A stretch of DNA of 64,000 bases from an uncultured Armatimonadetes bacterium (GTDB lineage Bacteria; Armatimonadota; UBA5829; DTJY01): contig OY970325.1 of NCBI GenBank assembly GCA_963717145.1, positions 4,672,001 through 4,736,000 of the forward strand. Reading direction: 5' to 3'. The translations under genes and the position numbers were made by a program. Below the pieces are notes generated by a model that was given only the letters and a program-made list of their open reading frames with translations, was not told where the DNA came from and searched no databases. Positions 7,997 to 64,000 of the stretch are shown one piece after another (within the stretch, counting starts at the first letter, position 1; the number at the start of each line of letters is the position of its first letter).

Positions 7997-10454
7997 TTAC
8001 AGCCGCTTGTATGTCACCATCGCGGAGTCCGGCTGATTCGACAGGGTGATGAGCAGGCCGGTCTCCATCAACTCTTTGCCGGTGTGCGCCTCGCCCGAGA
8101 TGCTGTACTTCGCTTCGGGGTCGAGGCCACGGAACCTGAACCGCGCCGACTCGTAGATGCTGTTCGGCCGGCGGAACACCTGCACGACTCCTTCGCCGAT
8201 GTCCGGGCGGTCGAACTGCCAGGCCATCCAGACGTCGTTCTCCGGGCTAAAGGGTGTCAGCGGGTAGTAGTCGCCGGAGTAGTAGGGCGAGATGCTCTTC
8301 CACTCGCCGATGAGGCGGCGCGCCGCATCCCAGTCCGAATCACGCTTGCGCATGTCGTAGCACGCGTTGATATATGGGCAGATGTTGCTCCGGAAGCTGT
8401 ACGGCTCGAACTGGTTCACGCCCGTGCCGTATGCCGGAATCCACGAGGCGATGCCGTAGGTGTGGTTCTGCTGGCTCGTCGGCTCGAGCAGCCAGTCGCT
8501 CCTGAGAAGCGGGACAGCCCGCCGGAGCGTCTCGATGTCGTTCCGACGCCCGCCGGACGCGCAGGTGTCGATCAGCATGTTCGGATGCCGCCGCCGAAGC
8601 TCGTCCCAGTAGGCGAGGTAGCCGGTGACGTGGTGGTTCTCGGTGATCCCCTGCCGGTCCTCGGCGTCGTTCGCCCGCCAGTACGCGAGCGGGTCCATGT
8701 TGAAGTCCTGGCGGTAGAGATCGATTCCCTGCGACACGAGCAGTCCGTCGACGTGCTCCGTGAGCCACTCCCGCGCGTCGGGATTGCCCAGGTCGAGCAG
8801 CTTCTGCTCCCCGTCCTTGCCGAGCAGCCACTCCGGATGCGTGTCATAAAGCCACGTGTCCGGGCGTGACGCGCTCCGGCTCGAACCAGACGATCGATCT
8901 TCACGCCCTTCGCGTGCGCGTGATCGGTGATCGCACGCAGACCGCCGGGGAATCGCTTCGTATCGACCTCCCACGTGCCGGTGTTCGGCCAGCCGGTCTT
9001 GTTGATGTACCATCCCGCGTCCATCCACCAGTAGTCGATCGGCAGCTTCTCCTCGAGGTAGCGGTCGACGAAGAACTTCTGGCTCTCCTCGTCGGCGTGG
9101 ATCATCTCGCCGAACTGGTGCGAGCTGCACGCCGCCATGTGCGGCGCGGGGTAGCTTGCCGCCGGGCTGGGGCATGTTGTGCGCCATCATCCACCGCCGC
9201 CAGACGTTCTGCGAGCGGACGCAGTCGCCCTTCCAGAACTGCAGGACGACCAGCGGCGACCGGACCTCCTCGCCGGGATGCAGCTTGAGATGCGTCAGTT
9301 CCTGCCCGCCGACGACGCGCAGGCCGTTCGTCTGATCGCGAGTGAACTCGACGGCCCACTGGCCGGGCCAGCCGAGGACCGCGATCACTCCCTCGCCCGG
9401 CCACTCGATGTTGAAGTACGGCAGATCGCTGTTCGTCGGCCGCCCGCCGCCTGTGGTGATGCGCTTCGATGCGCCCGGACCGAGCGTATCCCTGAACGGC
9501 TGGTAGTCGGTCGGGATGCACGGGCTGCCGGTGTTGTGGTTGAGCGCGAACTCGCCCTCCGCGTTGCGCTCGAACGTCGACGTCGAGCGCCTGGATCTTC
9601 TCCAGGATCGGCGTGTCGGCGGCACCGGTGTTCTTGAAGTAGACCGTCCACTCCACCGTCGGGAAATCCTTGTACTCGACGCCGACGCACCGGACTTGCA
9701 GCTTCGTCGCCGGATCGGTCCACGTGATCGTCCGCTGCTCCCTGTTGGCATCGAGTTTCTTCGAGCTTCTCTCCATCTTCCAGGTCTTCAGCAGCTCAGC
9801 GGACGGCTTGCCTCCGTAGACGAACGAGAACGGCGGATCGGTCGAGTAGGTGCGCGCCCGATCTTCGATGATCGGCAGTTCGCCGAGCCAGACCTTCTCA
9901 CCGTTGGTCAGCGTAACCTGCGCATCGGCCCAGTCGGACTGATCGCACGAGATTCCGTCGCCCGCGTCGCCGACCTCCAGCGCGAACTCGGTCGCCCCGC
10001 CGAGGTCGATCGAGACCGGAACGCCGGGCATCCCCTCGCGCATCACGCCGGAGTTGAACCTCTCGCCGCCGCCGACTTTGACGACGAAGACCACGCTCCC
10101 TCGTCCGCCCGAGGTCTGCTCGTTGCTGTCGACGCCGACGACCGCGCTGAGAGTCTTGCCGGGACTCGGAAGCCGCACGATCACCTTGCTGACCGCGTGG
10201 CAATAGAGCCCGCGAGTGTACTGCTTCCCCGCGATCACCATCGGCTTCTCGTGGCGGCCGTTCCGCTGCACGGGATCGTTGTTCGCCAGCACCATCAGCC
10301 CCGGCTTCGCGGTCGGCGTCTCCACCTTGCCCTCGAACCGCGCGGACGTCCACAACCGGGCCTCCGACATCTCATCCGCGGTCGGTATCGCTGCACTGAG
10401 CGACGTTGCCATCATCAGCACCACCATTCCTGTAAGTATGCGATATGTCATCAT
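7997..10454 (-). CDS. Second GH36-like alpha-galactosidase with NPCBM domain; four apparent +1 frameshifts (~9585, ~9145, ~8895, ~8862)
   Basis: Segments of ORFs 9102-10574, 7997-9751 and 8572-9138, plus IVWFEPERV in a third frame, join colinearly with the 4891-7410 paralog. Confidence 0.82.
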
Positions 10455-43999: not shown

Positions 44000-44090
44000 T
44001 GTCATTCTGAGCGCAGCGTATGTCATTCTGAACGCAGTGAAGAATCTGTTTGCGCACGGCCAGATTCTTCACTGCGTTCAGAATGACATA
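44000..44090. repeat. REP-like family G (TGTCATTCTGAACGCAGTGAAGAATCT and inverse)
   Basis: Three units here and three more at 58092-58187. Confidence 0.85.
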
Positions 44091-44160
44091 CGCGCAGCGC
44101 AGCTATCAGCGATCGTGAACTCTCACGAATACGGATTCCGCGTCGAATACCAATATTCCG

Positions 44161-44400
44161 GCCGGAGACATCCTCCAATCGCCCGGGGGAAAGATCTTCC
44201 AGCCCGGAAGCAAGTTGTCAATCCCCCGCAACAATCTCTTCCCGCCCGGAAGCAAGTTGTCAATCCCCCGCAACAATCTCTTCCCGCCCGGAAGCAAGTT
44301 GTCAATCCCCCGCAACAATGTCTTCCCGCCCGGAGACATCTTCCTGATCCCCCGCAGCAATCTCTTCCCGCCCGGAAACAACTTCCTTCCGCCCGGAAAA
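44161..44400 (+). repeat. 42-bp tandem repeat array
   Basis: TCTTCCCGCCCGGAAGCAAGTTGTCAATCCCCCGCAACAATC, three near-exact units plus degenerate flanking units. Confidence 0.9.
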
Positions 44401-44790
44401 CCGGGACGGAGAGCCGGGAAAGGCACAGTTACTACAGAATGGTCACACTCGGGCCGCAGTCCTGTCATAGAGAGTGTTCTCCGGCAGCAGAGGTCCCAAA
44501 AGAAGGAATAGAGGTATAGGCATCGAATGAGGAAGCATGCCGAGAACCGCTCGATCAGTGCTGGAGGGCATTCCCTATCACGTCACCCAGAGGGGCAACC
44601 GCAGAGGGGAACGCACGAGGGTCGGGTTTCCCTGCGGGGATGAGGCGTTTGTGGGAAGGATCTCAAACCTGTTTGGGAGGGAGCTTATCCTTCGTCGAGG
44701 CGGTCGCCCGAGGAAAATCCATGACGGCGGGTAGACGTAATCGTGAACCAATCGTAAATACCGCGCCTGTCCCTGGTTTCTCTGGTTTCC
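44395..44790 (+). mobile_element. Non-autonomous RAYT/Y1 HUH element with internally deleted transposase ORF (44537-44734)
   Basis: MPRTARSVLEGIPYHVTQRGNRR joined directly to a C-terminal G.P.GDEAF...GR......GRPRK; HUH core absent; bounded by GGGAAAGGCACAG ... CGCGCCTGTCCC. Confidence 0.72.
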
Positions 44791-44814
44791 AGAAAGGTTC
44801 TACAGGTGGTCTAT

Positions 44815-45351
44815 ATGTTAAGCAATGCTCGCAAGAAACGATCCATTGCCATCATTGCGGCAGTACTCTTGGCGGTCGCGATCGTGGTCGCAGTCCTCTA
44901 TGCCGCACACAGCCGTTCAGGGTCTCGGCCCGAAGCCTTCGTTGTTCTGCCGAACGCTGAGAAAGCTGCGTTCGTGACCTTCCACGGCACCAGACAGATG
45001 AGGTATGAGTTCGTTGAGCCGTATCCGGCGAAGACGGCTCTCAAGAGCATCTCAGACCGACTGGACAGCCTGGGCTGGAAGCCGCTGAAGAATAGCTATC
45101 TGCAACCAGACCGTCCATCGTCCCATGTGACCGGTTGGAAGGAGTTCCAGGACGGCACCAAGACGCCTTGGGTGAAAGTCAAGCAGTGGATGGCCGAGTG
45201 GAGGAGTCCTAGCGGCGATGTCGTTTCGTATATCTTGCGGTACGAGTGGCCAAATGACGCATCGGTTCCAAATACGGACAGGGTGCGCTTGAACAGCGTA
45301 CTCATACCTGCGAAAGCCGCAGCGTCGGGAAAAGGGGGACAGGCGCAATGA
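44815..45351 (+). CDS. Membrane-anchored hypothetical protein (paralog of 4412-4876)
   Basis: N-terminal TM; shared motif blocks with the 4412 gene. Confidence 0.7.
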   Translation: MLSNARKKRSIAIIAAVLLAVAIVVAVLYAAHSRSGSRPEAFVVLPNAEKAAFVTFHGTRQMRYEFVEPYPAKTALKSISDRLDSLGWKPLKNSYLQPDRPSSHVTGWKEFQDGTKTPWVKVKQWMAEWRSPSGDVVSYILRYEWPNDASVPNTDRVRLNSVLIPAKAAASGKGGQAQ

Positions 45352-45405
45352 CCGCAGTCTGTTCATCAGTTTGACCCAACGGCAACATAGCTGACCCGCC
45401 AACCG

Positions 45406-45477
45406 CCATGACGACAGGTGGACGTAATCGTGAACAAATCGTAAACACTGTGCCTGTCCCTGGTTTCCCTGGTTTCC
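45406..45477 (+). repeat. 72-bp direct repeat of 44719-44790
   Basis: 64/72 identical by my alignment. Confidence 0.9.
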
Positions 45478-45804
45478 CCCTGTGCCTACTCCCATGTTCC
45501 CATATACTACCGATGGCTGCCGCACCCAATCAGCGGCGTTTCCTTGCAGCTACAATGGCTTCGAGAGCCTTTTCTATGCGGCCACGCAGACCACCAAGGG
45601 CTTTCTGTTCGCCATAGGACAATACCCTGAAATGACTATTTATCGAAATACAGTTTGCAGGCTACTTGTAAGAGGAATCGTTTGCTAGTTCCCCCCAAGA
45701 ACATGCCTTACCCGGGTCTCACATCACGTTCCTACGGGCATCGATCTTGTCCGCAGTCAGGAATGCGTAAGACACGCACAAGATGCTCAGTGCGAGACAG
45801 GGAT

Positions 45805-48553
45805 TCACTTCAGACGTTGTAGAAAACTCTGAGCCGTCTTGACAAGCGGTTCGTCCAGATCCAGTTCATCAGCTACCGACTTCGCATCGGCTGATAGGAA
45901 AGCCTCCACGGTCATATATGCATCGGTGATTGCCTCAATCACATTCTGAGCGAGTCCGCTGTTTGCTAGCAAAATTGCCGATAGGAATCGCTTGCCACCC
46001 TTCAGACCAGACAACTGCGCGTTCTTCTGAATCTCATTCCTAAGATGACTAGCAAGTTTACTCACATCGGTGGCGGAGTCAACAAGGGGATACTCGATGT
46101 AGATCCAACCTTGGAGATCGCTTGGCACAGGCTTTCCCTTCCTCACACGAAGCAATGCTGAAGGCCGCTCTGGAAGCATCCTCAGCATGCCCACCTCCAT
46201 CATAACGTTCGCGTTCTGATCAGAGATCTCCGCCAGGTAGCAATGGGCATTCTTGATGTGGTCCATCACATTTCCGGACACTGTGGGATCATGTGTTAGA
46301 TCGCGCGCTGTGATCACCTGCCAATAATAGGGAGGCGACTGAAGCGCAGCGCGCACCGCCTCAAGGAAAGGGTCATACTTATCGTCGAACGGATACGCCA
46401 GAAAGCATGTCACGTGGTCAGAAAGCTCGGGCTGGGCCAACTTGCAGCGCAGTTCCGTCATCTCATGATCGAACGCCATCTGAGCCTTCTTGAACTCAGC
46501 TTGGAAGGCGTCCAGTTCACGCGCTACTCTCGCAGCCTTTTCTTCCTGCTGTTTGGCGTATTGCCGGAGTTCCTCTAGAGCGTCATCATGCTCCAGTTTC
46601 CGCCGGGTCAGTTCAGCCTCGACCTCCAGGAGACTCTGATGCTTCGCCATCAGTTGCTCAATAGCCATATTGGTACCGCGGAACATGACCTGCGCGTTCT
46701 CAGGTGTCACTGAGTGAGATTCGAATAGCACAGCGTTGTTGTAGAGGACAGTCATCGCCAGGTTGCGGACGGGATACCTCCCTGTCGGATGCGGCAAGTA
46801 GCTGGATTATGGGATTAGACGCGTTCAAATGAAGAACCGTCCCGCCGGTCAGCGAACCCTTGCGGTAGCGATCTCGTTCCTGCAGAAGTTGCGTGAAGAA
46901 CTTCCTTAGCTCCGGATTGACGTCTGTATCCTCAGCCAGCTTGCGGACTGTGTTCTCGTGTTCGGCATCTTCCTCAACCTGCAGCAGGATTGCGGGGATA
47001 TCAGTCGGCCGAAACTTTACCACTCGAGCAGCCATATTCCTGAGCGCAAAATCCTCTTCAAGCTTCGACCATCGGCCGTCCACATCGTCCACTGGTTCAA
47101 AGATATAGCCGGCGGCGGCATCCAGCTTCTTCACATCCACGTCCTCATGGCGCTCGTCATATTTCTCGAGAAACGCCTGTTCAGCTCCATAGCTTGCATC
47201 GATCACGCATAGTCCGGCTTCACGGAACAGAATCTTCTGCTGCGTTCCACTGCCAACGTCGCTGAAGTAATGAATGGTCTTGCGAGGTGTCTCCCCTTCC
47301 GCCGGCGTCTCACCGGCCTCAGTGCTCGCCAGAGCCTTGGGGTCAGACCCAACAAAGCGCTGGAGGTACGCGGGAATGTTCATCTTTCCATACTCGGTGT
47401 CCACAAGCACCAGATCACAGATCTTGTCGAAGAAGCTGTCGTCCTCCAGTGACCACGCCTTTATCAATGTGTTGTGGCTCGTCACAACCTCCCGCAGTTG
47501 CTGAGGATCGTCCGATGCAAGTCGGTCCAGATGCTTCAGGATTGACTGGGCCACCACCTCGCGCACGCGGTGGTATTTTTCGTCCTTTCGGACGCTCTCG
47601 CGAGACAGGGTCGGAGTAAGGGAAGAGCTATCCACTATTCCACGCACGAACTTCGCCCACACTGGGAGCAACTCCTGATCTCCGTTGCAGATAAACATCC
47701 GCGAGATATAGATGTCCAGGTCCCCATATTCCTTGATGGATACCATTGCATGGCGAGGAATGTAGAGTACCCCGTGAACAGAAAGGTCGCCTTCCTCGTA
47801 TTCCAGTGGAATGACTTCGAGCGGTGGTGTATCTTGGTACCGGTTTTTCACGTATTCCAAGTACTCCGATCTAGTCGCGTGCCGGTGCCACGGGGCATCC
47901 ATCACGTTCACAGGGAGCTTCGCCTGATTGAGGTAGATCGGCAACGACAGGAAGTCTGCATAGGTCTTGACTACCTTTGTGAGCACTTCCTCGTTGAGCA
48001 TGGTCGCCACATGATCCGGCGATACCGTGATGATGACTTCCGTGCCGACATCCTTCTTGTCGGCTTCCGCAAGTGTGTAGGTAACATTGCCGTCGCATTC
48101 CCAGCAGTATCCTCGCGATTCTGGCTGATATGACCGGGTAAGAATCTGTATCTTCTCCGCTATGATAAACGCCGAGAGCAGGCCGAGCCCGAACTGACCG
48201 ATCAGCTTCTCAGCGATGTCGCGATTCTTCTCGGAAAGCGCCTTCCTCAGCTCGGCCGTGTATCCTTTCCCTACAGTGGACAGAAACTCGTGGATCTCTG
48301 ACTCCGTCATCCCAGAGCCATTGTCACGGAAGGTTAGGGTCCGCGCATACGCATTTGCCTCGATGCCGATGCGTGGGTTCTTGAAGCTCTTGTCTTCTGC
48401 CATCCGACGCAGGCACGAGTCATGAGCGTTCTGGATCATCTCCCGCACGGAGACCTCCGGCTCCGAGTATAGTGTCTCGCCCAGGATTTTAATCAGTCCC
48501 GGGAGGTGAATCTGGATTTCATGCTCCTTTGCAGCCGTGTGCTCGGTTGTCAT
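45805..48553 (-). CDS. Hsp90/HtpG-like ATPase fused to coiled coil, NDT/TIR-like domain and HhH-like tail; one +1 frameshift near 46775
   Basis: REMIQNAHD, DNGSGM, IGQFGLG, GT, LSRE; the tail aligns across the shift with the paralog's C-terminus; then CFLAYPF...LAEISDQNANVMMEVG...VPSDLQGWIYIEY. Confidence 0.82.
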
Positions 48554-48584
48554 GCTGTTTCCTCCTATCCTAACGCCTCATCCC

Positions 48585-50048
48585 TCAGATCATAGTGGCA
48601 ATCGTTTCCACCAATTCCTGTATGGCCGATGGAAATCGCATCTGCCGTAGATGGCTGATCACCCATCGAATATCCTCCAGGCCGGGCCCCGCACGAGATG
48701 GCTCTTGCACAATCAGATCGCGAAGCTGCTCCAGGCTACGCTGAAGACAGTCTTCCGCTGGACTTGAGACACCATCGGCACGCGGAGATGACTCGTCAAG
48801 CTGCGAGTACTGCCTAGCAGCCAAACGAAGTAGTTCGTGCAGGAAGGTATCCCGATTCTCCAAGCAAGATCCGTCACTCAGCATGTTAGCTATCGCCGTG
48901 ATCACCACCAGCAGAAGCTGGCTCCTATTGGGCTCAACAAGTATAGATGCAATCACATCTGTCGCCTCCAGCCGATTGCTGGACGACAACTTCGTGAGAA
49001 ACCTGCGCCACAACCACAGCCTGGCGCTAGTCGCCTCTACACCATGCTTATCGAGTAAGTCATCTAGCAGGAATATGCTTCCCGACTTGAGCAAGACCTC
49101 GACGTCTTCGGTGTTGATGATAGTCACAACCTGTTCTTCGGATACCGACTGGCCCAGCTTCTCGGCTCGAAGCAATGAGAGGAGATTACCTACGTGCGTC
49201 CTGTCCCACTTGCCATTGGTATACCTGGCTACCCCATCTGCGCGAGTGAGAATCTCCTCAGCACTTGAGAGGTGTTCATTGGTGTGAAGACCCTGTCCGC
49301 CGTGCCGATTGCGCACAACGCTCTTCAGGATGAACTCACCGTAGCTGACACAACACTCAAAGAGGCAGGAGAAATACTCTCCTGTTATCGTCTGATTCGC
49401 GATATTGGTTATCTCCTTATGCAGCGCTTGACTATCGAAGCCCAGAACCCCCATTGCACCCTCGCTGCTGCGACCGTCAGGTAAACCAGGTGGCAGCAAG
49501 AGCGCAATGCTTGCGCTGAGCATGTGCTGTAGCTCGGTCACCGGCCAAAGCGCCAGATCGTGGAGCATATGACTGTCAGCGCATTCCCTCAGCACCTGCG
49601 CAGCAAGCACCACCTCGTCCAAGCGATCACCAGCGTCAAGAGACCACAGCTTAGCTTGTAGCAGCCCCCACTCCTGCGACCCAAGCGGCGGCGGGCCAAA
49701 GCGCGCAATGTTGGCGGCAACACCCGCATTCCGTTCTATCTCCCGCCACGCTCCGTGCAGACATCTGATCGCGTCATCTTCGTTCCCCGCCACTCGAAAC
49801 AGCCGACCAGTGAGCAACGGTATACGCACGGCAGCGTCATGACTGCCCATTACTACTTGCGGAGCGTTATTCATGTAGAAATCGATACTGACAGCAACGT
49901 GTCTGGCGACCCGCCGTTCAAGACGAGACTGTTTCGCAGGAACCATTCGTGCCAGGTAAACGAGTCCTTCCCGCTTCTTTCTGGGATCCGGTGAGAGCAG
50001 GTTCCGGACAGCAGCGGCAACGCTGCGATCAAGATCAACTCCGTTCAT
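48585..50048 (-). CDS. Hypothetical, probably alpha-helical, protein in the Hsp90-SIR2 operon
   Basis: GGAGGT RBS, start MNGVDLDR overlapping the SIR2 gene end; Leu/Ala/Glu/Arg-rich; no motif recognised. Confidence 0.7.
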   Translation of the reverse strand: MNGVDLDRSVAAAVRNLLSPDPRKKREGLVYLARMVPAKQSRLERRVARHVAVSIDFYMNNAPQVVMGSHDAAVRIPLLTGRLFRVAGNEDDAIRCLHGAWREIERNAGVAANIARFGPPPLGSQEWGLLQAKLWSLDAGDRLDEVVLAAQVLRECADSHMLHDLALWPVTELQHMLSASIALLLPPGLPDGRSSEGAMGVLGFDSQALHKEITNIANQTITGEYFSCLFECCVSYGEFILKSVVRNRHGGQGLHTNEHLSSAEEILTRADGVARYTNGKWDRTHVGNLLSLLRAEKLGQSVSEEQVVTIINTEDVEVLLKSGSIFLLDDLLDKHGVEATSARLWLWRRFLTKLSSSNRLEATDVIASILVEPNRSQLLLVVITAIANMLSDGSCLENRDTFLHELLRLAARQYSQLDESSPRADGVSSPAEDCLQRSLEQLRDLIVQEPSRAGPGLEDIRWVISHLRQMRFPSAIQELVETIATMI

Positions 50049-51306
50049 CCCAGTACCTCCACACCTGATCATAGGACGGCTCCCAACTCGGGCGGTCACC
50101 TACAGCGTCCGAGCGAGTCATATGGTCGAGCAGGCCCCGCCGCACCCCAGATGAGAACGTCAGACACGGTCCTCGCAGTCCATACACATGACACAGCATT
50201 CCATTGTGCAGCCACTTGCTTAGTCGCTGCTGCTTCTCCGCCTTACCGTCGCCCTCCTCGCGCCCTAGGACAAACTCGGCGTCGAACTCTCCTTTGAGAA
50301 CAGCAGCGAATACAGCAACTGGGAACGAGCCATCTTGTTTCCTCAGCCAATAATCGTGAAGGTCTCTTCGCAGGTCGGCCGCATCAGGAATGATCTGCTG
50401 GCTAAGAAGCTCGCGCTTCAGCTGCTCTAGGAAGCCCTGGATATCGTGTGCGTATATGTCGACCCCGCGTTCCTCCCAAAAACTCTGATCCACAGGATCA
50501 GGATCATTCATTATGGCCCAGGACGGCGGCATGTTGTCCTCTTGCCTGGCTTCCTGGAGGATACGCTGGAAGTTCAGGTCCCTCATGCTGTAGCCCAGTA
50601 TCAACAGAGGTCGCGTGGCAAACCAGAGTCTGAGTTGGCACGCGATCAGCGGTCGATTCCTAAAAAAGACGGCGTACTGCGAGGTACTTAGTACGTAGTC
50701 GTCCAGGAGTTCCGCCCTATCGATCGAGGTGGGGACTCGTATTCTTCTCTGAATCGCGTTCAAGCAGCCGTGCATCTTGACGATCTGTGTGCGGTCTACC
50801 TGCCCTTGGTCATTCGGAGGCTGGGAAAGATCGCTATCGCCGGCAATGCACCAGGGCCACAGTAGCGTTGCATCGTAGATTGCAGTTTCGAGCAGTGTGT
50901 CATAATTTGTCGTCGCAATAGCTCGGAAAGGTATTTCTGCAATGAGTGAGTGGATCTCACCATATCCCGCTCTTAGCCCTGTTGCCGCACCGATGTGGAG
51001 CCTGTTTAGTACGTCGTCATCGAGATGGGCTTCAAAGGCACGCAAAAAAGCACGATTCAGCCTGCCGGGCCCGTGGTGTCTATCAACGCGGCGGAGTCGT
51101 TCCGCTGTCCTGTGAAGATCTTCGTTGCCTCTGGCTGCAAGCTCAGCCTGCGCTCCATCATGCTTTCTGATCTCGTCTATCAGTGTCTTGCGCAGTTCCT
51201 CCGTACTTGGTGCACACCCACTGGAGATACCGGCCCCCACCAGCAACACACACCTTCCCGACAGGATGCTCTCGGCTATCAGGTCCACAGGAATGGTACC
51301 GGGCAC
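50035..51306 (-). CDS. SIR2-like (SIR2_2) domain protein, putative NADase effector
   Basis: LLVGAGIS, IATTNYDTLLE, IVKMHGCL, DYVLS..QY, LILGYSMRDLNF. Confidence 0.9.
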   Translation of the reverse strand: MPGTIPVDLIAESILSGRCVLLVGAGISSGCAPSTEELRKTLIDEIRKHDGAQAELAARGNEDLHRTAERLRRVDRHHGPGRLNRAFLRAFEAHLDDDVLNRLHIGAATGLRAGYGEIHSLIAEIPFRAIATTNYDTLLETAIYDATLLWPWCIAGDSDLSQPPNDQGQVDRTQIVKMHGCLNAIQRRIRVPTSIDRAELLDDYVLSTSQYAVFFRNRPLIACQLRLWFATRPLLILGYSMRDLNFQRILQEARQEDNMPPSWAIMNDPDPVDQSFWEERGVDIYAHDIQGFLEQLKRELLSQQIIPDAADLRRDLHDYWLRKQDGSFPVAVFAAVLKGEFDAEFVLGREEGDGKAEKQQRLSKWLHNGMLCHVYGLRGPCLTFSSGVRRGLLDHMTRSDAVGDRPSWEPSYDQVWRYWDERS

Positions 51307-51307
51307 G

Positions 51308-53224
51308 TCAATCCCTCCGCTGTCTCAAGAACCAAGATCTTAGTCCCCGTCCGGTCTGCCTTGTATCCTCGGCTAGGCTTGCGGACAGCCGCAGCAACAT
51401 TGCCACGGTCTGCGTATGCATCTCGGCCATCTTCTCGACCTCCTGAATGGAAAGACCCTTGGTGGCGACCAGATAGGCCGAGTTATAGACTTCCTTCATG
51501 CATTGCAGACCGACCTCATCGCTCTCTTCCAAGACTGACAATAGCCGTATCACTTCGTTTCCGGAATTGAGATACAGCGTCCAGCCGGACCCCTTCTGCC
51601 CCATCCGTCCGCTGAGTGCAGCCTCGAACAACTCTCGGAGCAGATCGGGGATGTCGGGATCGTCACCGAGTTCCTCTAATAACCGGCCAGCCGCAGGCCT
51701 ATCGCTACGCACCAGCAGGGATGGGATAGAGACCGGTTTGAAGCTCACTGCTTTGGCCACTATGTCCATGTCGGCATAACGCCCGATCAAGGCCTCCAGG
51801 GTGCCCGGGGGGACTGAGTCAAAGAGAGCATCCGCAGCCTCATCGATCATCTTTGCCCGCAGTCCGCGCTCTCCTTCGGCATACTTCTCGATGAACGCCC
51901 GATCGATCTTCTCCTCAGCGTCAATCACAGGAACCCCATTCGCCGCAAAGAGGAGCTGATGCTGTCGGCTTTCGACCCCGCCGGAATGGAAGTAGATCGT
52001 CTTCTCACCCCTCGGGACGCGTCTTGAAGCTCGTTCGAGATAGACAGGAATAGTGGTCTTTCCGGAGTCGGAGTCGAACTGCACATGGTTCTTCACCATG
52101 CCAAAGAAATGATCATCCTCCAACGCACCCATTTTCACGGCAAGCTCATGTGCCCTGAGAATCGCATTGAATCGCGATGGCTCAGATATGGCCAGTTCGG
52201 TGATGAAACCGGCAAGTCGCTCTCCGATCAGCGCTTGGGCTCTCTGGAATCTCGTGTTGCGGACCACGCTCTCACGGCTGGTCGTAACGTCCAGTTCGGA
52301 TGTTTCGATCACGCCTCCTACGAATCTGGCCCAATCCGGCAGCAGTTCGCGCTCTTTTCCTATATACATCCTGGAGACGTAGAGTTCCAAAGCCGGGGGT
52401 TCCCCGGTTCCAGATTGCGGGATGAAGAGAGCGCCGCCTATATCGAAGCCATCCGCTCTCCTATCCAGAGGAATGACCTCCATCGGCGGCTGGTGGAAAC
52501 GATTGGCAATGTAGTCGGCGCACTCCATGGTCGATCCCCTGCTGTACCATGGAGCTGTCTGAGCGTTCACGGGCAAAGGCTTGTCACCGATGTAGATCGG
52601 GAATTCGATGAAGTCGGCATAACGCCGTACCAACTCGATGACGTGATCCGGGCTCGTGAATCCGTCGGTTGTGCTCTTCACATCAAGGATGATTGTGCTG
52701 CCGATCGGAAGGCCTGGGGTCTTCTGCAGAGTGTATTCTGCGCCGCCATCACATCTCCATGTGAAACCTGTGCTATCACCTCTGAAAGATCGTGTGCGGA
52801 TCTCGACAGACTCTGCTATCACGAAGGCGGAGAGTAGGCCCATGCCGAAGCGCCCAATCAGCCGCCGTGCCTCCTCCCGATTCTCCTGTTCCAACACCTT
52901 ACGGAACTCAGCCGTTCCACTTCTGCCTACAGTCGACAAGTAGTCCATGATCTCGGCCTCGGTCATACCTGCGCCGTTATCTCGGATCACGAGAAGATCA
53001 TTGCCCGTATCACACTCGATGCCTATGCGCAAGTCCTGTGGACAACTCGGATCAGTCAACTGCCGGTTGACAAGTGAATCGTTGGCATTCTGGATCAACT
53101 CACGGATGGCGACGGATCTGTCGGAATAGAGGTGTTGTCCGAGGGTCTTGATGATCCCGGGCAGGTAGATGCCTATCTGGCTGCGTTTGACACCTTCCTC
53201 AGACGATGGATCCAGTGAAGACAT
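51308..53224 (-). CDS. Hsp90/HtpG-like ATPase
   Basis: LYSDRSVAIRELIQNAND, DNGAGM, IGRFGMG, LYVSRMYI...LLPDWARFV.G, TSRE; AGGAGGA RBS. Confidence 0.9.
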   Translation of the reverse strand: MSSLDPSSEEGVKRSQIGIYLPGIIKTLGQHLYSDRSVAIRELIQNANDSLVNRQLTDPSCPQDLRIGIECDTGNDLLVIRDNGAGMTEAEIMDYLSTVGRSGTAEFRKVLEQENREEARRLIGRFGMGLLSAFVIAESVEIRTRSFRGDSTGFTWRCDGGAEYTLQKTPGLPIGSTIILDVKSTTDGFTSPDHVIELVRRYADFIEFPIYIGDKPLPVNAQTAPWYSRGSTMECADYIANRFHQPPMEVIPLDRRADGFDIGGALFIPQSGTGEPPALELYVSRMYIGKERELLPDWARFVGGVIETSELDVTTSRESVVRNTRFQRAQALIGERLAGFITELAISEPSRFNAILRAHELAVKMGALEDDHFFGMVKNHVQFDSDSGKTTIPVYLERASRRVPRGEKTIYFHSGGVESRQHQLLFAANGVPVIDAEEKIDRAFIEKYAEGERGLRAKMIDEAADALFDSVPPGTLEALIGRYADMDIVAKAVSFKPVSIPSLLVRSDRPAAGRLLEELGDDPDIPDLLRELFEAALSGRMGQKGSGWTLYLNSGNEVIRLLSVLEESDEVGLQCMKEVYNSAYLVATKGLSIQEVEKMAEMHTQTVAMLLRLSASLAEDTRQTGRGLRSWFLRQRRD

Positions 53225-53400
53225 CGCTGTTCCTCCTGGTGAGTTAGTATGCTCAGTGCAACAGTTCAAGGCAGAGCGTAGGACACCTAGTGGTTGCGAT
53301 GGTCATTAGCTCTACTCTAACGATGACCGTAGTATGAAGATGCCACCGCCTACCCGTCGATATAGTATACCACGGCATAACTGGTTGCGCAAGTCCCCGA

Positions 53401-54867
53401 GTAACAGTTCACGCTTGGGGATAACGAGTTTGATCAGGCAGGGAAGAGGACAGACTTGCCTGCGAGCAGTTGCCTGCATGATTCGAGCATGTCCAGACCC
53501 CTGACGTGCCATGTGCCAAACAGACTCATGAGCGTCATCTTTGTCTCGGAACCCTTCGCGCTTCGTGTGCCTCCGCATACCTTGCGGGCGATCACACACG
53601 GCCTCAGCGCTCGTTCTGCGCCATTGTTGTCCGACGGTACTTCCGGGTACTCTACGAACATGAACAACTCGTGCAAGCGATCTATGAATCTCTTTGCCAG
53701 CGTCTGCTGTGGAGCATCTGAGCCGACATACGGACCTGAGAGCGCCTCTACCTCTTCCTCGAAGAGTACTCGCTTCCACTTGCGAACCTCCGCCTTCTTG
53801 CTCCGGAACTCCTTTGCCCGATCGTAAACACCCTTCACCGCATCCGCCCATGCGATGACGCCCGTGTCGTCCGCGTTCCTCTCCTTCAGTTTGTGCAGAT
53901 CCCTGGCCAGATGTGCCCAGCATATCTGGCGGTCTGCAACTACCGGGTTGTATCCGGCATAGCAATCCGTTACCACTACCCCTTCGTAGTCGCCGCCTAT
54001 CGTTTCCTTCGGGATCTCTCCACTCCGACTCCGCCGGTAGATGAAGTATCGCACGTTCTTAGTGGAGAAGGTCCAGATGTATCCGTTCAGCCCATCCTCT
54101 CTCCAGCCCGTCTCGTCTGCGTTTATGTATGGGCTTCCACGTACAAGCGAGAGTAGCCGCTCTTTCTCTTTTTTGCCACAGTCTGCCACCGTGTGCAATA
54201 TCTCGCTTATCTCTCCCACAGAGAGCTGAAGACCATACAGAGCCTTCAGCAATCCCTGTATCGTCCGCTTTGTCATGCGACCTACCGTCGAAAGATACGA
54301 TATCAGGCTCATCAGGTTCACGCCTACCCGATGCTTGCCTACAACCTGGCCGGAAAGGTCAACCTTCGGCACATGACTCTTGCCACAGTATCCGCATCTT
54401 CTGGCGATGAACCTGTGCTCGACTACGTCCACAGGCACGATGGGGATGTCGATGACTTGGCGGAGTCTCTTTACCGTGCCCCCTGTGAGCGCTCGGCCGC
54501 AGTCCGGACACTTCGAGTGCGCGTGCTCGACTACACGGGTGGGTGTCTCCCGCCTGCGCACGAACGACTTCTTGCGCTTCTTTCGTTCAGCTGCCCGGCG
54601 CTCTTTGCGGTTCGGCTTCACCCAGTCAGGCACGGATGGGGAACTGCCATCACCGCCGGAAAGCCTGGCGCGAAGGTCTTCGTTCTCCTTCTCCAGGTCG
54701 CCGATACGCGCCACGAGTTGGGGAACTAGACCTTCCAACTGGCTGACCCTGGCCTCAAGCTCCTCGTATGTCGGCTTGGATTGCTCGCTCACACTCCTTG
54801 GTTCGAGACGCTCCCAGCAGGTTCCTTCTTCTTACAGACAAAATAATCCCTAAGCCTGAACTGTTAC
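53401..54867 (-). mobile_element. IS66-family element (single-ORF type), copy 1
   Basis: IRs GTAACAGTTCACGCTTGGGGA / GTAACAGTTCAGGCTTAGGGA; 1467 bp. Confidence 0.93.
53434..54792 (-). CDS. IS66 family transposase
   Basis: Leucine zipper, CPDCG zinc finger, ADETGW, TDCY, QICWAHLAR, DNNGAERALR. Confidence 0.95.
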   Translation of the reverse strand: MSEQSKPTYEELEARVSQLEGLVPQLVARIGDLEKENEDLRARLSGGDGSSPSVPDWVKPNRKERRAAERKKRKKSFVRRRETPTRVVEHAHSKCPDCGRALTGGTVKRLRQVIDIPIVPVDVVEHRFIARRCGYCGKSHVPKVDLSGQVVGKHRVGVNLMSLISYLSTVGRMTKRTIQGLLKALYGLQLSVGEISEILHTVADCGKKEKERLLSLVRGSPYINADETGWREDGLNGYIWTFSTKNVRYFIYRRSRSGEIPKETIGGDYEGVVVTDCYAGYNPVVADRQICWAHLARDLHKLKERNADDTGVIAWADAVKGVYDRAKEFRSKKAEVRKWKRVLFEEEVEALSGPYVGSDAPQQTLAKRFIDRLHELFMFVEYPEVPSDNNGAERALRPCVIARKVCGGTRSAKGSETKMTLMSLFGTWHVRGLDMLESCRQLLAGKSVLFPA

Positions 54868-54875
54868 CCCTGAAA

Positions 54876-56342
54876 GTAACAGTTCACGCTTGGGGATAAC
54901 GAGTTTGATCAGGCAGGGAAGAGGACAGACTTGCCTGCGAGCAGTTGCCTGCATGATTCGAGCATGTCCAGACCCCTGACGTGCCATGTGCCAAACAGAC
55001 TCATGAGCGTCATCTTTGTCTCGGAACCCTTCGCGCTTCGTGTGCCTCCGCATACCTTGCGGGCGATCACACACGGCCTCAGCGCTCGTTCTGCGCCATT
55101 GTTGTCCGACGGTACTTCCGGGTACTCTACGAACATGAACAACTCGTGCAAGCGATCTATGAATCTCTTTGCCAGCGTCTGCTGTGGAGCATCTGAGCCG
55201 ACATACGGACCTGAGAGCGCCTCTACCTCTTCCTCGAAGAGTACTCGCTTCCACTTGCGAACCTCCGCCTTCTTGCTCCGGAACTCCTTTGCCCGATCGT
55301 AAACACCCTTCACCGCATCCGCCCATGCGATGACGCCCGTGTCGTCCGCGTTCCTCTCCTTCAGTTTGTGCAGATCCCTGGCCAGATGTGCCCAGCATAT
55401 CTGGCGGTCTGCAACTACCGGGTTGTATCCGGCATAGCAATCCGTTACCACTACCCCTTCGTAGTCGCCGCCTATCGTTTCCTTCGGGATCTCTCCACTC
55501 CGACTCCGCCGGTAGATGAAGTATCGCACGTTCTTAGTGGAGAAGGTCCAGATGTATCCGTTCAGCCCATCCTCTCTCCAGCCCGTCTCGTCTGCGTTTA
55601 TGTATGGGCTTCCACGTACAAGCGAGAGTAGCCGCTCTTTCTCTTTTTTGCCACAGTCTGCCACCGTGTGCAATATCTCGCTTATCTCTCCCACAGAGAG
55701 CTGAAGACCATACAGAGCCTTCAGCAATCCCTGTATCGTCCGCTTTGTCATGCGACCTACCGTCGAAAGATACGATATCAGGCTCATCAGGTTCACGCCT
55801 ACCCGATGCTTGCCTACAACCTGGCCGGAAAGGTCAACCTTCGGCACATGACTCTTGCCACAGTATCCGCATCTTCTGGCGATGAACCTGTGCTCGACTA
55901 CGTCCACAGGCACGATGGGGATGTCGATGACTTGGCGGAGTCTCTTTACCGTGCCCCCTGTGAGCGCTCGGCCGCAGTCCGGACACTTCGAGTGCGCGTG
56001 CTCGACTACACGGGTGGGTGTCTCCCGCCTGCGCACGAACGACTTCTTGCGCTTCTTTCGTTCAGCTGCCCGGCGCTCTTTGCGGTTCGGCTTCACCCAG
56101 TCAGGCACGGATGGGGAACTGCCATCACCGCCGGAAAGCCTGGCGCGAAGGTCTTCGTTCTCCTTCTCCAGGTCGCCGATACGCGCCACGAGTTGGGGAA
56201 CTAGACCTTCCAACTGGCTGACCCTGGCCTCAAGCTCCTCGTATGTCGGCTTGGATTGCTCGCTCACACTCCTTGGTTCGAGACGCTCCCAGCAGGTTCC
56301 TTCTTCTTACAGACAAAATAATCCCTAAGCCTGAACTGTTAC
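54876..56342 (-). mobile_element. IS66-family element, copy 2 (tandem)
   Basis: Same IRs and length as copy 1; identical translated ORF. Confidence 0.93.
54909..56267 (-). CDS. IS66 family transposase
   Basis: Translation identical to 53434-54792. Confidence 0.95.
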   Translation of the reverse strand: MSEQSKPTYEELEARVSQLEGLVPQLVARIGDLEKENEDLRARLSGGDGSSPSVPDWVKPNRKERRAAERKKRKKSFVRRRETPTRVVEHAHSKCPDCGRALTGGTVKRLRQVIDIPIVPVDVVEHRFIARRCGYCGKSHVPKVDLSGQVVGKHRVGVNLMSLISYLSTVGRMTKRTIQGLLKALYGLQLSVGEISEILHTVADCGKKEKERLLSLVRGSPYINADETGWREDGLNGYIWTFSTKNVRYFIYRRSRSGEIPKETIGGDYEGVVVTDCYAGYNPVVADRQICWAHLARDLHKLKERNADDTGVIAWADAVKGVYDRAKEFRSKKAEVRKWKRVLFEEEVEALSGPYVGSDAPQQTLAKRFIDRLHELFMFVEYPEVPSDNNGAERALRPCVIARKVCGGTRSAKGSETKMTLMSLFGTWHVRGLDMLESCRQLLAGKSVLFPA

Positions 56343-62717: not shown

Positions 62718-64000
62718 ATGATTCTATCACTGCTCATATCTCTCATATCGGGCCTGGTTCTGACCCTGGCGTTTCCCAGGACGGACATATACCTGGTCGC
62801 CTGGATCGCACTCGCGCCGCTCTTCTACCTCACGGTCCGCAGGGGATGGCTGATGGCGACGCTCTGCGGTTTCGTCTTCGGGCTCGGGTTTTTCGGAAGC
62901 CTGCTCTGGTGGATCGGGATATTCGGCACACTGCCCTGGGTGCTGCTGACGATCATCCAATCGCTCTACACCGCCGTGTTCGGCCTGAGCGCGAACCTGA
63001 TCGCCGGACGCCTCAATGCGTGGGGCAGGCTGATCATTATGCCCGCGCTCTGGGTCGCATTCGAGTGGATCCGCTCCCAGGGACTGCTCGGGTTCACGTG
63101 GGGCGATGTCGGCTACTCCCAGGCCTATGCGCTGCCGGTCATCCAGATTGCATCGATCACGGGCGTGTGGGGAGTCTCGTTTCTCGCGGCGATCGTCAAT
63201 TCCATGCTGGCGAATATCGGCGGGTACTGGGCGAATAATCGCAGCATCCGGGGATCATACGCCCAGCTCTTGGTGACCGCCGCAGTCCTGGCAGTCACGA
63301 TCGGGTATGGCCTGGTCGCCATGGATGCGCCGGTACACGGCAAGTCATTCCGCGCGGCCGTGATCCAGGGGAACATCAATCAAGATGCCGAGGAGGACCT
63401 CGACTACTACGACCGAACCATGCAGACCTACCGCCGGATGACGCTCGACGCCGCTTCGAAGGGCACCGGGCTCATCATCTGGCCCGAAACCTCGATGCCC
63501 GGCTCGCCGGGTTACGAGCCGTATCTGCAGGGCTGGCTGTCGGCTCTCTCCCAGCAGGCGAAGGCCCCCTGATCGTCGGTGGTCGGGATGAGGATCTGCG
63601 TGGTCACGTATTCAACTCCGCGTTTCTCGTCGGTCCTGGGAAGGGGATACTCACTCGGTATGCGAAGGTCAGACTCGTGCCGTTCGGGGAGTTCGTTCCC
63701 GCGCGCAAGTACCTCCCGCTGCTTGCCAACTACCGGGTGACACCGATGGACGTGACCCCCGGTCGCGGCTTCAACCTGCTCGACGGCGGGCCTTGCAGGA
63801 TCGGCGTGGCGATATGCTTCGAGTCGACCTTCCCGTACATATCCCGAACGCTGACCGCTTCCGGGGCGCAACTGCTCTGCGTCATCACGAACGACGTCTG
63901 GTTCGGCCGTTCCGCCGCCGCCGAACAGCATGCCGAGATGTCGGTGCTCCGGGCGGTCGAGAACCGGCGGTACCTGTTGAGAGGCGCGGCAACCGGGGTG
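62718..64000 (+). CDS. lnt: Apolipoprotein N-acyltransferase; -1 frameshift in a C-run near 63566; runs off window
   Basis: WVAFEWIRS..GFTW..GYSQ, IQGNI, IWPET; after the shift YFNSA, KVRLVPFGEF, ICFES, ITNDVWFG, RAVENRR. Confidence 0.93.

What the first reader, a model, noticed from the sequence alone, without database searches (positions are those of the whole stretch)
45805..46860. Hidden fusion: the 330-aa ORF is the C-terminal effector tail of Hsp90-B
Seen: Hsp90-B ...LHLNASNPIIQLLAASDRE continues in another frame as PVRNLAMTVLYNNAVLFES... This matches the end of Hsp90-A (LYLNSGNEVIRLL...MKEVYNSAYLVA). Removing one base near 46775 gives a ~915-aa protein: Hsp90, coiled coil, NDT/TIR-like domain (AEIS..NANV..EVG, PSDL) and HhH-like end. 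Inference: Hsp90 dimerisation or clamp closure could assemble and switch on the effector. The shift is probably a read error, but an inactivating mutation or programmed frameshift is not excluded.
Basis: partly seen in the sequence, partly recalled or inferred. Interest (0 to 1): 0.75.

Follow-up and report, generated by a model that had tools for sequence, protein, structure and literature searches.

The report
Hsp90-effector fusion gene split by frameshift
The two ORFs are one gene for an Hsp90-type ATPase fused to a TIR/nucleoside-deoxyribosyltransferase-like enzyme, a probable immune protein common in other bacteria, and the one-base break here is most likely an assembly error.

Summary
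Skipping one base at window 46774-46783 (minus strand) joins Hsp90-B and the 330-aa ORF into a 915-aa protein. The nearest intact homolog (917 aa) is 73% identical over residues 9-688, straight across the break. Of the 120 best relatives of this Hsp90 clade, 98 carry the same effector-family domain in one chain. The effector part folds with pLDDT 93.9. It matches DNPH1/nucleoside deoxyribosyltransferase (Z 14.1) and TIR domains (Z 13.6) about equally. The 'HhH-like end' was not confirmed.

The break is most likely an assembly error. Of 89 conserved genes compared with a same-family genome, 10 show frame jumps, including single-copy ileS with several. No reads could be obtained, so a real recent mutation stays possible, at about 0.2.

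The gene lies in a lower-GC island beside IS66 copies, with a second Hsp90 paralog, a SIR2 gene and an orphan helical protein. Relatives swap effectors (EAD1, EAD8, trypsin, PNP, TIR_2) and often have a TPR gene downstream. This fits the computationally predicted, untested Hsp90-module immune systems. The gene is an interesting member of that kind. The frameshift itself is ordinary.

The parts
46777..48553 (-). Hsp90-B: GHKL ATPase N-domain, middle domain and most of the C-terminal domain (P0001 residues 1 to about 591). The annotated ORF runs on out of frame to a false stop at 46700.
   Evidence: Pfam HSP90 E 1.6e-18 and HATPase_c_3 E 7.4e-8. PDB sequence match to TRAP1 at 2.6e-47 and to HtpG at 5e-41, with the ATP-site and middle-domain Arg motifs aligned. 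Invariant E38, N42, D77, G119/G122/G124 and R318 in alignment A1.
46774..46783 (-). Site of the one-base surplus (minus strand AGG-GAGG-TAT). The frame moves by +1 here.
   Evidence: A four-letter step at AGGG opens a 915-aa frame. Homologs P0153, P0121 and P0024 have the same number of residues across this point.
46612..46776 (-). End of the Hsp90 C-terminal domain, encoded in the frame of the 330-aa ORF (ORF330 residues 8-62).
   Evidence: 78% identical to the last 55 residues of the 648-aa Hsp90 paralog P0121. Aligns to the end of Hsp90-A and to P0153.
46423..46611 (-). Helical, probably coiled-coil linker (ORF330 residues about 63-125).
   Evidence: Charged, heptad-like sequence read directly. 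Length varies among homologs in alignment A1. Not tested by a coiled-coil program.
45994..46422 (-). Effector domain of TIR / nucleoside 2-deoxyribosyltransferase / DNPH1 fold (ORF330 residues about 126-268). The nearly invariant Glu is E201, in NANVMMEVG, codon 46195-46197.
   Evidence: AF2 pLDDT 93.9. VIA Z 14.1 to DNPH1, 13.6 to a TIR domain, 13.5 to an NDT. Weak Pfam CAP12-PCTIR_TIR hit, E 3.3e-4, 21.1 bits, below the 24.7 cut-off. E91 and G93 of the domain are nearly invariant in 61 sequences.
45808..45993 (-). C-terminal bundle of five short helices (ORF330 residues 269-330), of unknown fold class. The stop codon is at 45805-45807.
   Evidence: Modelled at pLDDT 95-98. Present in 51 of the 98 fused homologs. 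No convincing structural match.
48585..50099 (-). X504, an orphan protein predicted to be all-helical, between the SIR2 gene and Hsp90-B.
   Evidence: No Pfam or PADLOC hit. No homolog other than itself among proteins of 277-882 aa, and none among 883-2520 aa. AF2 single-sequence model pLDDT 40.4, 23 helices. Coding-like GC1/2/3 pattern.
50035..51306 (-). SIR2_2-domain protein (423 aa), directly after Hsp90-A.
   Evidence: Pfam SIR2_2 E 7.2e-24. PADLOC ThsA-type SIR2 E 4.8e-12, PDC-S25, Dsr2.
51308..53269 (-). Hsp90-A, a stand-alone Hsp90 paralog (653 aa), 36% identical to Hsp90-B.
   Evidence: Pfam HSP90 E 7.3e-15. BLASTP 2e-131 against P0001.
53300..56330 (-). Two tandem copies of an IS66-family element bordering the island.
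   Evidence: Identical 452-aa transposases. Pfam DDE_Tnp_IS66 E 3.8e-37. 22 copies or fragments in the genome.

Best explanation
Hsp90-B and the 330-aa ORF are one gene. It encodes a protein of about 915 aa:
- a complete Hsp90 (ATPase, middle and dimerising C-terminal domains);
- a helical, probably coiled-coil linker;
- an enzyme domain of the TIR / nucleoside-deoxyribosyltransferase / DNPH1 fold with a conserved Glu;
- a small helical end domain.

The one-base surplus at 46774-46783 that splits it is most likely a consensus error of this assembly, not biology.

The gene belongs to a large, patchily distributed clade of Hsp90 paralogs. These carry interchangeable conflict-type effectors and often have a TPR protein encoded downstream. 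Here it sits in a lower-GC, IS-flanked island with a second Hsp90 paralog, a SIR2 protein and an orphan helical protein.

Proposed mechanism (inferred, not shown):
1. The Hsp90 part is a constitutive dimer through its C-terminal domain.
2. A trigger, such as a phage protein acting as client or the TPR or helical partner, drives ATP-dependent closure of the N-terminal clamp.
3. The movement passes through the C-terminal domain and the linker.
4. The two effector domains then pair through the helix that carries the conserved Glu.
5. The paired domains cleave the N-glycosidic bond of NAD+ or of a nucleotide, which stops the infected cell.
For: One gene:
- A single four-letter step opens a 915-aa frame.
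- P0153 (917 aa) is 73% identical over residues 9-688, across the break. P0121 and P0024 do the same.
- 98 of the 120 best clade members carry the effector-family domain in the same chain.
- 7 of 80 genome loci are fused, 6 of them in one frame.
- An intact 877-aa gene lies on the finished plasmid NZ_AP017561.1.

Domains.

Assembly error:
- 163 ORFs of 300 aa or more were taken from 400 kb of the same-family genome G008. Of these, 89 had a match of 40% identity or more in this genome (42,019 aa).
- 10 of the 89 genes show 11 collinear frame jumps. They include ileS (single copy, frames 2-3-2-3; the only other hit is valS-like at 27%), RNase J, lnt, formate-THF ligase and acetyl-CoA synthase.
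- The reverse control gave 3 jumps in 141 genes.
- At about one jump per 11 kb, a 2.75-kb gene has roughly a 1 in 5 chance of being hit.

Conflict role:
- Effectors on the clade are EAD1, EAD8, Trypsin_2, PNP_UDP_1, TIR_2 and this domain.
- The effector family co-occurs with TIR, ThsB_TIR, EAD7 and EAD8.
- No orthologue was found in 40 relatives. Only 18 of 400 other genomes of the phylum have any Hsp90-type match, none above 40% identity.
- The island has GC 55% against 60.6% for the genome, and IS66 copies lie beside it.

Dimer of the effector part: score 0.45, best control 0.00. That mark was reached by 20 of 30 proteins solved as pairs and 1 of 23 solved as single chains. Run agreement was at least 82% and partner pLDDT at least 81. 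The interface covers residues 84-98, including the conserved Glu. NDT and DNPH1 dimers are solved, so this pass may reflect likeness to them.
Against: - No reads could be laid, because no run was listed. The error is inferred from the genome-wide rate, not seen at this site.
- 22 IS copies (about 30 kb aligned) show no indel among themselves, so the consensus is not uniformly poor.
- The locus lacks the TPR partner seen next to relatives. tblastn of 17 partner proteins found nothing in the window better than E 0.007, and that hit is elsewhere. The locus also borders mobile elements, which would suit a decaying, truly broken gene.
- No PADLOC system model matches; there are only weak domain hits.
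- Nothing here shows defence, ATPase activity or the enzyme's substrate.
- The Pfam TIR-like hit is below its curated cut-off.
- Only 6 of 10 downstream partner proteins tested gave TPR Pfam hits.
Confidence: 0.7

Rival explanations
1. The frameshift is real: a recent one-base insertion has inactivated the gene. It leaves an Hsp90 that lacks its last dimerisation helices, and possibly a free 316-aa effector fragment started at the ATG at 46755.
For: The island borders two IS66 copies and a 42-bp tandem repeat. It lacks the TPR partner common next to relatives. Another fused homolog, in an isolate genome (L029), also shows a frame jump, so such genes do get broken or mis-assembled. IS copies show no indel errors. 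The public gene call for this genome lists the two pieces separately, as P0152 (617 aa) and P0002 (316 aa).
Against: There is only one defect in 2.75 kb, and all ATPase motifs and the effector Glu are intact. The assembly breaks essential genes at about one per 11 kb, which alone predicts many such cases.
Confidence: 0.22
2. Programmed +1 ribosomal frameshifting at the Shine-Dalgarno-like AGGGAGG produces both a short Hsp90 and the full fusion.
For: The break lies in an AGGGAGG stretch, read directly. From recalled knowledge, an internal SD-like sequence stimulates +1 shifting in prfB.
Against: All close homologs are in one frame at exactly this point. Of 120 clade members, 98 are plain fusions. 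There is no slippery or stop codon context like that of prfB at the site.
Confidence: 0.03
3. They are two genuine genes: a stand-alone Hsp90 and a separately translated effector, like Hsp90-A followed by SIR2.
For: Hsp90-A and SIR2 in the same island are separate, abutting genes. 19 of the 120 clade members are 617-738 aa without this effector.
Against: The first 62 residues of the 330-aa ORF are the end of the Hsp90 C-terminal domain itself, 78% identical to the end of P0121. The 617-aa ORF ends in 25 out-of-frame residues without homology. The nearest ATG lies 22 nt after the SD-like stretch.
Confidence: 0.03

Closest known systems
Hsp90-module immune/conflict systems predicted by Nicastro, Burroughs, Iyer and Aravind, Nucleic Acids Res 2023 (PMC10681802). 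The paper was not held. I know it from recall of its abstract, from a secondary description in the Tiamat preprint 10.64898/2026.09.30.754977 (passages) and from earlier notes of this scan.
   Same: An Hsp90-type GHL ATPase is joined to nucleotide-attacking or complex-forming effectors and acts as the switch in place of a STAND NTPase. The type is patchy, mobile and untested. The EAD1, EAD8 and trypsin fusions on this clade fit the 'proteolysis-induced complex-forming effectors' that I recall from the abstract.
   Different: The form described has N-terminal HD or calcineurin-like effectors and fast-evolving C-terminal domains. Here a complete Hsp90 (N, middle and C domains) carries the effector at its C-terminus after a helical linker. 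The effector is of the TIR/NDT/DNPH1 fold, and a TPR gene commonly follows. I could not check whether the paper already lists this architecture.
Housekeeping HtpG / TRAP1 / Hsp90 chaperones
   Same: The sequence matches over the N and middle domains (TRAP1 2.6e-47, HtpG 5e-41). The ATP-site Glu, Asn, Asp and Gly lid and the middle-domain Arg are conserved. A C-terminal domain of the same length is present.
   Different: It carries a 270-residue enzymatic tail. It lies in a foreign island. It is missing from 40 of 40 relatives and found in only 18 of 400 genomes of the phylum. It is only 23-33% identical to annotated htpG genes.
CAP12 / Pycsar TIR-like effectors (Pfam PF10137) and the DNPH1/NDT N-glycosidases
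   Same: Same fold (Z 12.5-14.1, rmsd 2.3-3.0 A over 113-132 residues). The conserved Glu lies at the end of the central strand-helix motif. The predicted two-fold dimer runs through that helix.
   Different: The Pfam score of 21.1 is below the cut-off of 24.7, and only 12 of 61 family members hit PF10137. The domain is attached to Hsp90, not to a cyclic-nucleotide sensor. It has an extra C-terminal helical bundle. The substrate is unknown.
Eukaryotic Hsp90 with TPR co-chaperones (Hop, PP5, SGT1 in NLR immunity); recalled knowledge
   Same: An Hsp90 is paired with a TPR protein. TPR Pfam hits occur in 6 of 10 downstream partners tested, and a TPR gene lies two genes downstream on the Pseudanabaena plasmid.
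   Different: There is no C-terminal MEEVD-type tail: Hsp90-A ends ...FLRQRRD and the fusion ends ...FLQRLK. The pairing is by gene neighbourhood only. No TPR gene is detectable in this window.

Membership tests
Hsp90 family (Pfam PF00183 with a GHKL ATPase domain) | Bergerat-fold ATP site: catalytic Glu, Mg-binding Asn, adenine-binding Asp, Gly-rich lid | tested here: met
   VREMIQNAHDS, FRDNGSGMT and IGQFGLGLLSAF align to the TRAP1 motifs. E38, N42, D77, G119, G122 and G124 are invariant in A1. The roles of these residues are recalled knowledge.
Hsp90 family (Pfam PF00183 with a GHKL ATPase domain) | Middle domain with the ATP-gamma-phosphate Arg | tested here: met
   Pfam HSP90 E 1.6e-18 over residues 226-386. 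TLSRES aligns to NLSREL of TRAP1. R318 is invariant.
Hsp90 family (Pfam PF00183 with a GHKL ATPase domain) | C-terminal dimerisation domain | tested here: inconclusive
   It is present by alignment to Hsp90-A, P0121 and P0153, but only if the break is read through. No structural model of this part was made, and dimerisation was not tested.
CAP12/Pycsar TIR-like domain (Pfam PF10137) | Score at or above Pfam's gathering cut-off | tested here: not met
   21.1 bits against a cut-off of 24.7. 12 of 61 family members match at E up to 0.001.
TIR / NDT / DNPH1 fold class | Flavodoxin-like fold superposable on solved members | tested here: met
   Model pLDDT 93.9. Z 14.1, rmsd 2.7 A over 124 residues to DNPH1. 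Z 13.6 to the IL-1RAcPb TIR domain. Z 13.5 to an NDT.
TIR / NDT / DNPH1 fold class | Catalytic Glu at the equivalent position | tested here: inconclusive
   A nearly invariant Glu is present: E91 of the domain, which is E201 of the ORF. Its equivalence to the catalytic Glu of NDT, DNPH1 or TIR was not checked residue by residue.
Hsp90-module conflict systems (Nicastro et al. 2023) | Hsp90-related ATPase fused or coupled to conflict effectors, with mobile and patchy distribution | tested here: met
Hsp90-module conflict systems (Nicastro et al. 2023) | N-terminal HD-CE or calcineurin-CE effector and variable C-terminal sensor (as described) | tested here: not met
   There is no N-terminal extension. 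The effector is C-terminal and of a different fold. The primary paper could not be read.
Programmed ribosomal frameshift gene | Two-frame arrangement and shift site conserved in homologs | tested here: not met
   Homologs are in one frame at the site. 98 of 120 are plain fusions.
Known anti-phage systems in PADLOC-DB 2.0 | Match to a system's protein model | tested here: not met
   Only weak domain-level hits: PDC-S35 E 7.8e-4, TIR effector E 1.7e-3 and TmtA GHKL E 1.8e-7.

The most novel reading that the evidence does not exclude
A complete Hsp90 chaperone clamp, not a STAND NTPase, is the sensor and switch of a widespread family of bacterial immune proteins. It would read a phage protein as a 'client', alone or with a TPR partner, and use ATP-driven closure to pair two TIR/NDT-like domains into an active N-glycosidase. 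The Hsp90-TPR pairing and the Hsp90 link to innate immunity known from eukaryotes would then have a prokaryotic counterpart in these operons. In this locus, two Hsp90 paralogs would arm two different NAD/nucleotide effectors, SIR2 in trans and the TIR/NDT-like domain in cis.
Probability: 0.3. Interest if true: 0.75.

Novelty: new member of a known kind. Interest (0 to 1): 0.45.

Why it matters
For annotation: the locus should be read as one fused gene of about 915 aa. This assembly's frameshifts should not be taken as pseudogenes without reads, because about one conserved gene in nine is affected.

For biology: the gene is a clear example of a large clade that public sources name only 'molecular chaperone HtpG' or 'ATP-binding protein' (one search found 657 proteins at E up to 1e-20). 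In this clade a full Hsp90 is wired to TIR/NDT-like, TIR_2, PNP, trypsin or EAD modules, and a TPR gene often follows. If it is immune, it offers a tractable system. It could show how a chaperone-type clamp is turned into a trigger for an NAD- or nucleotide-degrading effector. It could also show whether TPR-Hsp90 partnerships predate eukaryotes.

I found no experimental work on such proteins in ten full-text searches. The one computational paper that probably covers the class could not be read.

Tried and rejected
- Sequencing runs: none was listed for 45805-48553, so no reads were laid and no RNA holder was listed.
- Four-letter steps TCCC and GTAT shifted the frame at other in-frame sites too. 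AGGG is unique to the break.
- Orthologues in 40 relatives: not found with this query.
- SIR2 and X504 homologs beside the 80 related Hsp90 loci: none by tblastn at E 1e-5.
- TPR-partner remnant downstream of the ORF: none. The best window hit was E 0.007, elsewhere in the window.
- X504 against the TPR-partner profile: hhalign probability 0.15%. The ESM Atlas best score was 0.89, below the 0.9 lead level.
- X504 homolog searches at near and longer lengths found nothing but the protein itself.
- X504 single-sequence AF2 gave pLDDT 40.4, so no fold search was run on it.
- Promoter and terminator scan of 44000-54000: fewer sites than in shuffles, nothing usable.
- Phage collection: only partial Hsp90 or htpG matches, none covering 80% of the query.
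- Earlier findings at this place and by sequence: none. A seven-word look-up also found none.
- The IS-copy test for indel errors showed no indels. It turned out to be a poor guide, since the orthologue test showed many frame jumps.
Full report
**1. What is in the sequence**

On the minus strand the window holds five consecutive ORFs:
- Hsp90-A, 51308-53269, 653 aa
- a SIR2_2 protein, 50035-51306, 423 aa
- an unknown 504-aa protein (X504), 48585-50099
- Hsp90-B, 46700-48553, 617 aa
- the 330-aa ORF, 45805-46797

Pfam finds HSP90 plus GHKL ATPase domains in both Hsp90 paralogs and SIR2_2 in the 423-aa protein. It finds nothing in X504. In the 330-aa ORF it finds only a sub-threshold CAP12/Pycsar TIR-like hit (E 3.3e-4, 21.1 bits, cut-off 24.7). 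PADLOC gives only weak domain-level hits and no system.

**2. The observation**

The 330-aa ORF lies in the +1 frame of Hsp90-B, and the two overlap by 98 bases. A script showed that the four letters AGGG occur in frame only at the break. Reading them as one step gives one open frame of 915 residues, P0001.

P0001 aligns to Hsp90-A without a gap at the break, up to residue 643.

A search of 1.84 billion representative proteins with the 330-aa ORF gave 424 hits at E up to 0.001. Many of them are 840-930 aa long with the match at their C-terminus. One 648-aa protein (P0121) has its last 55 residues 78% identical to ORF residues 8-62. Ten of these hits were scanned against Pfam, and eight are Hsp90 proteins.

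In alignment A1, three homologs run straight across the break: P0024 (908 aa, 60% identical), P0121 (74%) and, later, P0153 (917 aa, 73% over residues 9-688). All three have the same number of residues there. The surplus base therefore lies in the minus-strand stretch AGG-GAGG-TAT, window 46774-46783.

**3. How common the fusion is**

A word-indexed search with P0001 found 657 proteins at E up to 1e-20, and the best 120 were listed. Sources name them 'molecular chaperone HtpG' or 'ATP-binding protein'. I built an HMM from the effector-family alignment A3. It hits 98 of the 120. Of these, 51 have the C-terminal helical end as in the window and 47 lack it. The other 22 are:
- the window's own 617-aa fragment
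- 19 proteins of 617-738 aa, one of which carries EAD8
- one TIR_2 fusion
- P0121

Pfam on ten picked members shows other modules on the same Hsp90 clade:
- EAD1, N-terminal
- EAD8, C-terminal
- Trypsin_2, N-terminal
- PNP_UDP_1
- TIR_2

A scan of 185,579 species genomes kept 80 loci. By tblastn, 7 of the 80 carry the effector domain after the Hsp90. Six of the seven are in one frame. The seventh, L029 (Paractinoplanes rishiriensis), has a frame jump of its own near L029:8410.

A finished, mobilizable plasmid of Pseudanabaena sp. ABRG5-3 carries an intact 877-aa fused gene. A TPR gene lies two genes downstream. Nearby are a TIR gene, a helicase gene, and VWA and AAA genes.

**4. The effector**

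ORF residues 111-330, folded with 61 sequences, give pLDDT 93.9. Foldseek and VIA place residues 126-268 in the TIR / nucleoside 2-deoxyribosyltransferase / DNPH1 / MilB fold:
- DNPH1: Z 14.1, rmsd 2.7 A over 124 residues
- a TIR domain: Z 13.6
- an NDT: Z 13.5

These scores are tied within 1.

A Glu in NANVMMEVG (E201 of the ORF) is nearly invariant in the family. Its equivalence to the catalytic Glu of those enzymes is inferred.

The last 62 residues form five short helices without a convincing match, so 'HhH-like' is not confirmed.

Two copies of the part are predicted to pair symmetrically through residues 84-98, which include that Glu:
- score 0.45, best control 0.00
- the mark was reached by 20 of 30 proteins solved as pairs and 1 of 23 solved as single chains
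- runs agree in at least 82% of contacts, and partner pLDDT is at least 81

. NDT and DNPH1 dimers are solved, so this pass may reflect likeness to them.

**5. Error or mutation?**

No sequencing run could be listed, so I tested the assembly itself. The genome is one contig of 5.37 Mb.

First test: 22 copies of the IS66 element show no indels among themselves.

Second test: comparison with a same-family genome.
- I took 163 ORFs of 300 aa or more from 400 kb of genome G008 and compared them with this genome by tblastn.
- 89 had a match of 40% identity or more (42,019 aa).
- In 10 of these genes the alignment jumps frame at collinear points, 11 junctions in all.
- The broken genes include isoleucyl-tRNA synthetase, RNase J, lnt, formate-THF ligase and acetyl-CoA synthase.
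- ileS is single copy. It changes frame 2-3-2-3, with further patches, and its only other hit is a 27% valS-like gene.
- The reverse comparison gave 3 jumps in 141 genes.

An essential single-copy gene with several frameshifts cannot be biology. The assembly therefore carries about one indel per 11 kb of coding sequence, which predicts a hit in roughly one of five genes of this length. I put the assembly-error reading at about 0.75 and a real recent mutation at about 0.2. In favour of the latter: the locus borders IS elements and lacks the usual TPR partner. A programmed frameshift is unlikely, because homologs are in frame at the site.

**6. Context**

- The island 45805-53269 has GC 55.2% against 60.6% for the genome. 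Its GC3 is 0.60-0.65 against 0.75 in long ORFs genome-wide.
- On one side lie two tandem IS66 copies and an rve integrase gene. On the other lies a 42-bp tandem repeat.
- None of 40 relatives has an orthologue. Only 18 of 400 other genomes of the phylum have an Hsp90-type match, none above 40% identity.
- Downstream of the related Hsp90 genes there is usually a gene of 343-392 aa, seen at 17 loci, or one of about 770 aa.
- Ten such partner proteins were scanned. Six have TPR Pfam hits: L010, L011 and L014; L029, which adds a bifunctional-nuclease domain; and, weakly, L042 and L068. Four have none: L025, L033, L016 and L018.
- No such gene or remnant is detectable in the window.
- X504 has no detectable homolog. 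It is predicted all-helical at low confidence, so its role is open.
- Tandem Hsp90 paralogs also occur at L023.

**7. Mechanism**

Shown: the domain order, intact ATPase motifs, the effector fold with its conserved Glu, and the predicted effector dimer.

Inferred: a constitutive Hsp90 dimer whose ATP-driven clamp closure is set off by a client-like phage protein or by a TPR or helical partner. The movement passes through the C-terminal domain and the helical linker. The effector domains then pair into an active N-glycosidase that depletes NAD+ or nucleotides.

**8. Comparison with what is known**

Ten full-text searches found no experimental study of Hsp90-TIR, Hsp90-SIR2 or Hsp90-TPR bacterial systems.

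Earlier notes of this scan and the Tiamat preprint (passages) point to Nicastro et al. 2023. From my recall of its abstract, that paper predicted Hsp90- and Hsp70-related modules as switch analogues of STAND NTPases, coupled to nucleotide-targeting or complex-forming effectors. The paper was not held and supplements are closed. I could therefore not check whether this exact architecture is listed.

I file the locus as a new member of that predicted, untested kind. The frameshift itself is an ordinary artefact.

Noticed in passing
window 62718-64000 (break near 63554-63566, at a run of five C): The apolipoprotein N-acyltransferase gene (lnt) changes frame inside the window. The 284-aa ORF continues in another frame when compared with the same-family orthologue. 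This is another probable assembly indel.
   Followed up: partly
G000:C1:1364603-1367681 (outside the window): Single-copy isoleucyl-tRNA synthetase is read in frames 2-3-2-3, with further patches. With 9 other broken conserved genes among the 89 tested, this points to about one indel per 11 kb of coding sequence in this assembly.
   Followed up: yes
window 53300-56330: There are two tandem, identical IS66-family elements. The genome holds 22 copies or fragments, 17 of them at least 99% identical, without any indel between copies.
   Followed up: partly
window 48585-50099: X504 is an orphan: no Pfam or PADLOC hit, and no homolog among 5.8 billion proteins at near or longer lengths. It overlaps the end of the SIR2 gene by 65 bases in another frame. 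I wondered whether SIR2 and X504 are one DSR2-like protein split by another indel. I found no evidence for this.
   Followed up: partly
window 45805-53269: The whole five-gene island has GC 55.2% against 60.6% for the genome, and a much lower GC3. This fits horizontal acquisition.
   Followed up: partly
window 44195-44381: A 42-bp tandem repeat, 4.5 copies at 90% matches, lies just downstream of the island. The small ORFs beside it have no Pfam hit.
   Followed up: no
L029:8001-12143 (Paractinoplanes rishiriensis NBRC 108556): A fused homolog there shows its own frame jump near 8410. Its downstream partner combines TPR repeats with a bifunctional-nuclease (BFN) domain.
   Followed up: no
L023:8004-11965; also G382:C5:37806-40788: Two Hsp90 paralogs stand in tandem in other genomes too. 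P0239 (Hsp90-PNP) and P0250 share a source name and a longest-contig length of 16,457 bases, so they probably lie on one contig. Paired Hsp90 modules may be a recurring arrangement.
   Followed up: no
L025:8001-8145: The tblastn match starts at 8001, but a stop at about 8093 interrupts the frame, and the longest ORF starts at 8145. This may be an in-frame stop or a mis-set start in that metagenome-assembled genome.
   Followed up: no
L042, L044, L046, L050, L057, L067, L068 and others: A second, more distant group of Hsp90 genes of about 620 aa (Stenotrophomonas, Xanthomonas, Kitasatospora and others) is regularly followed by a protein of about 770 aa. The two such proteins tested had weak TPR hits.
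   Followed up: no
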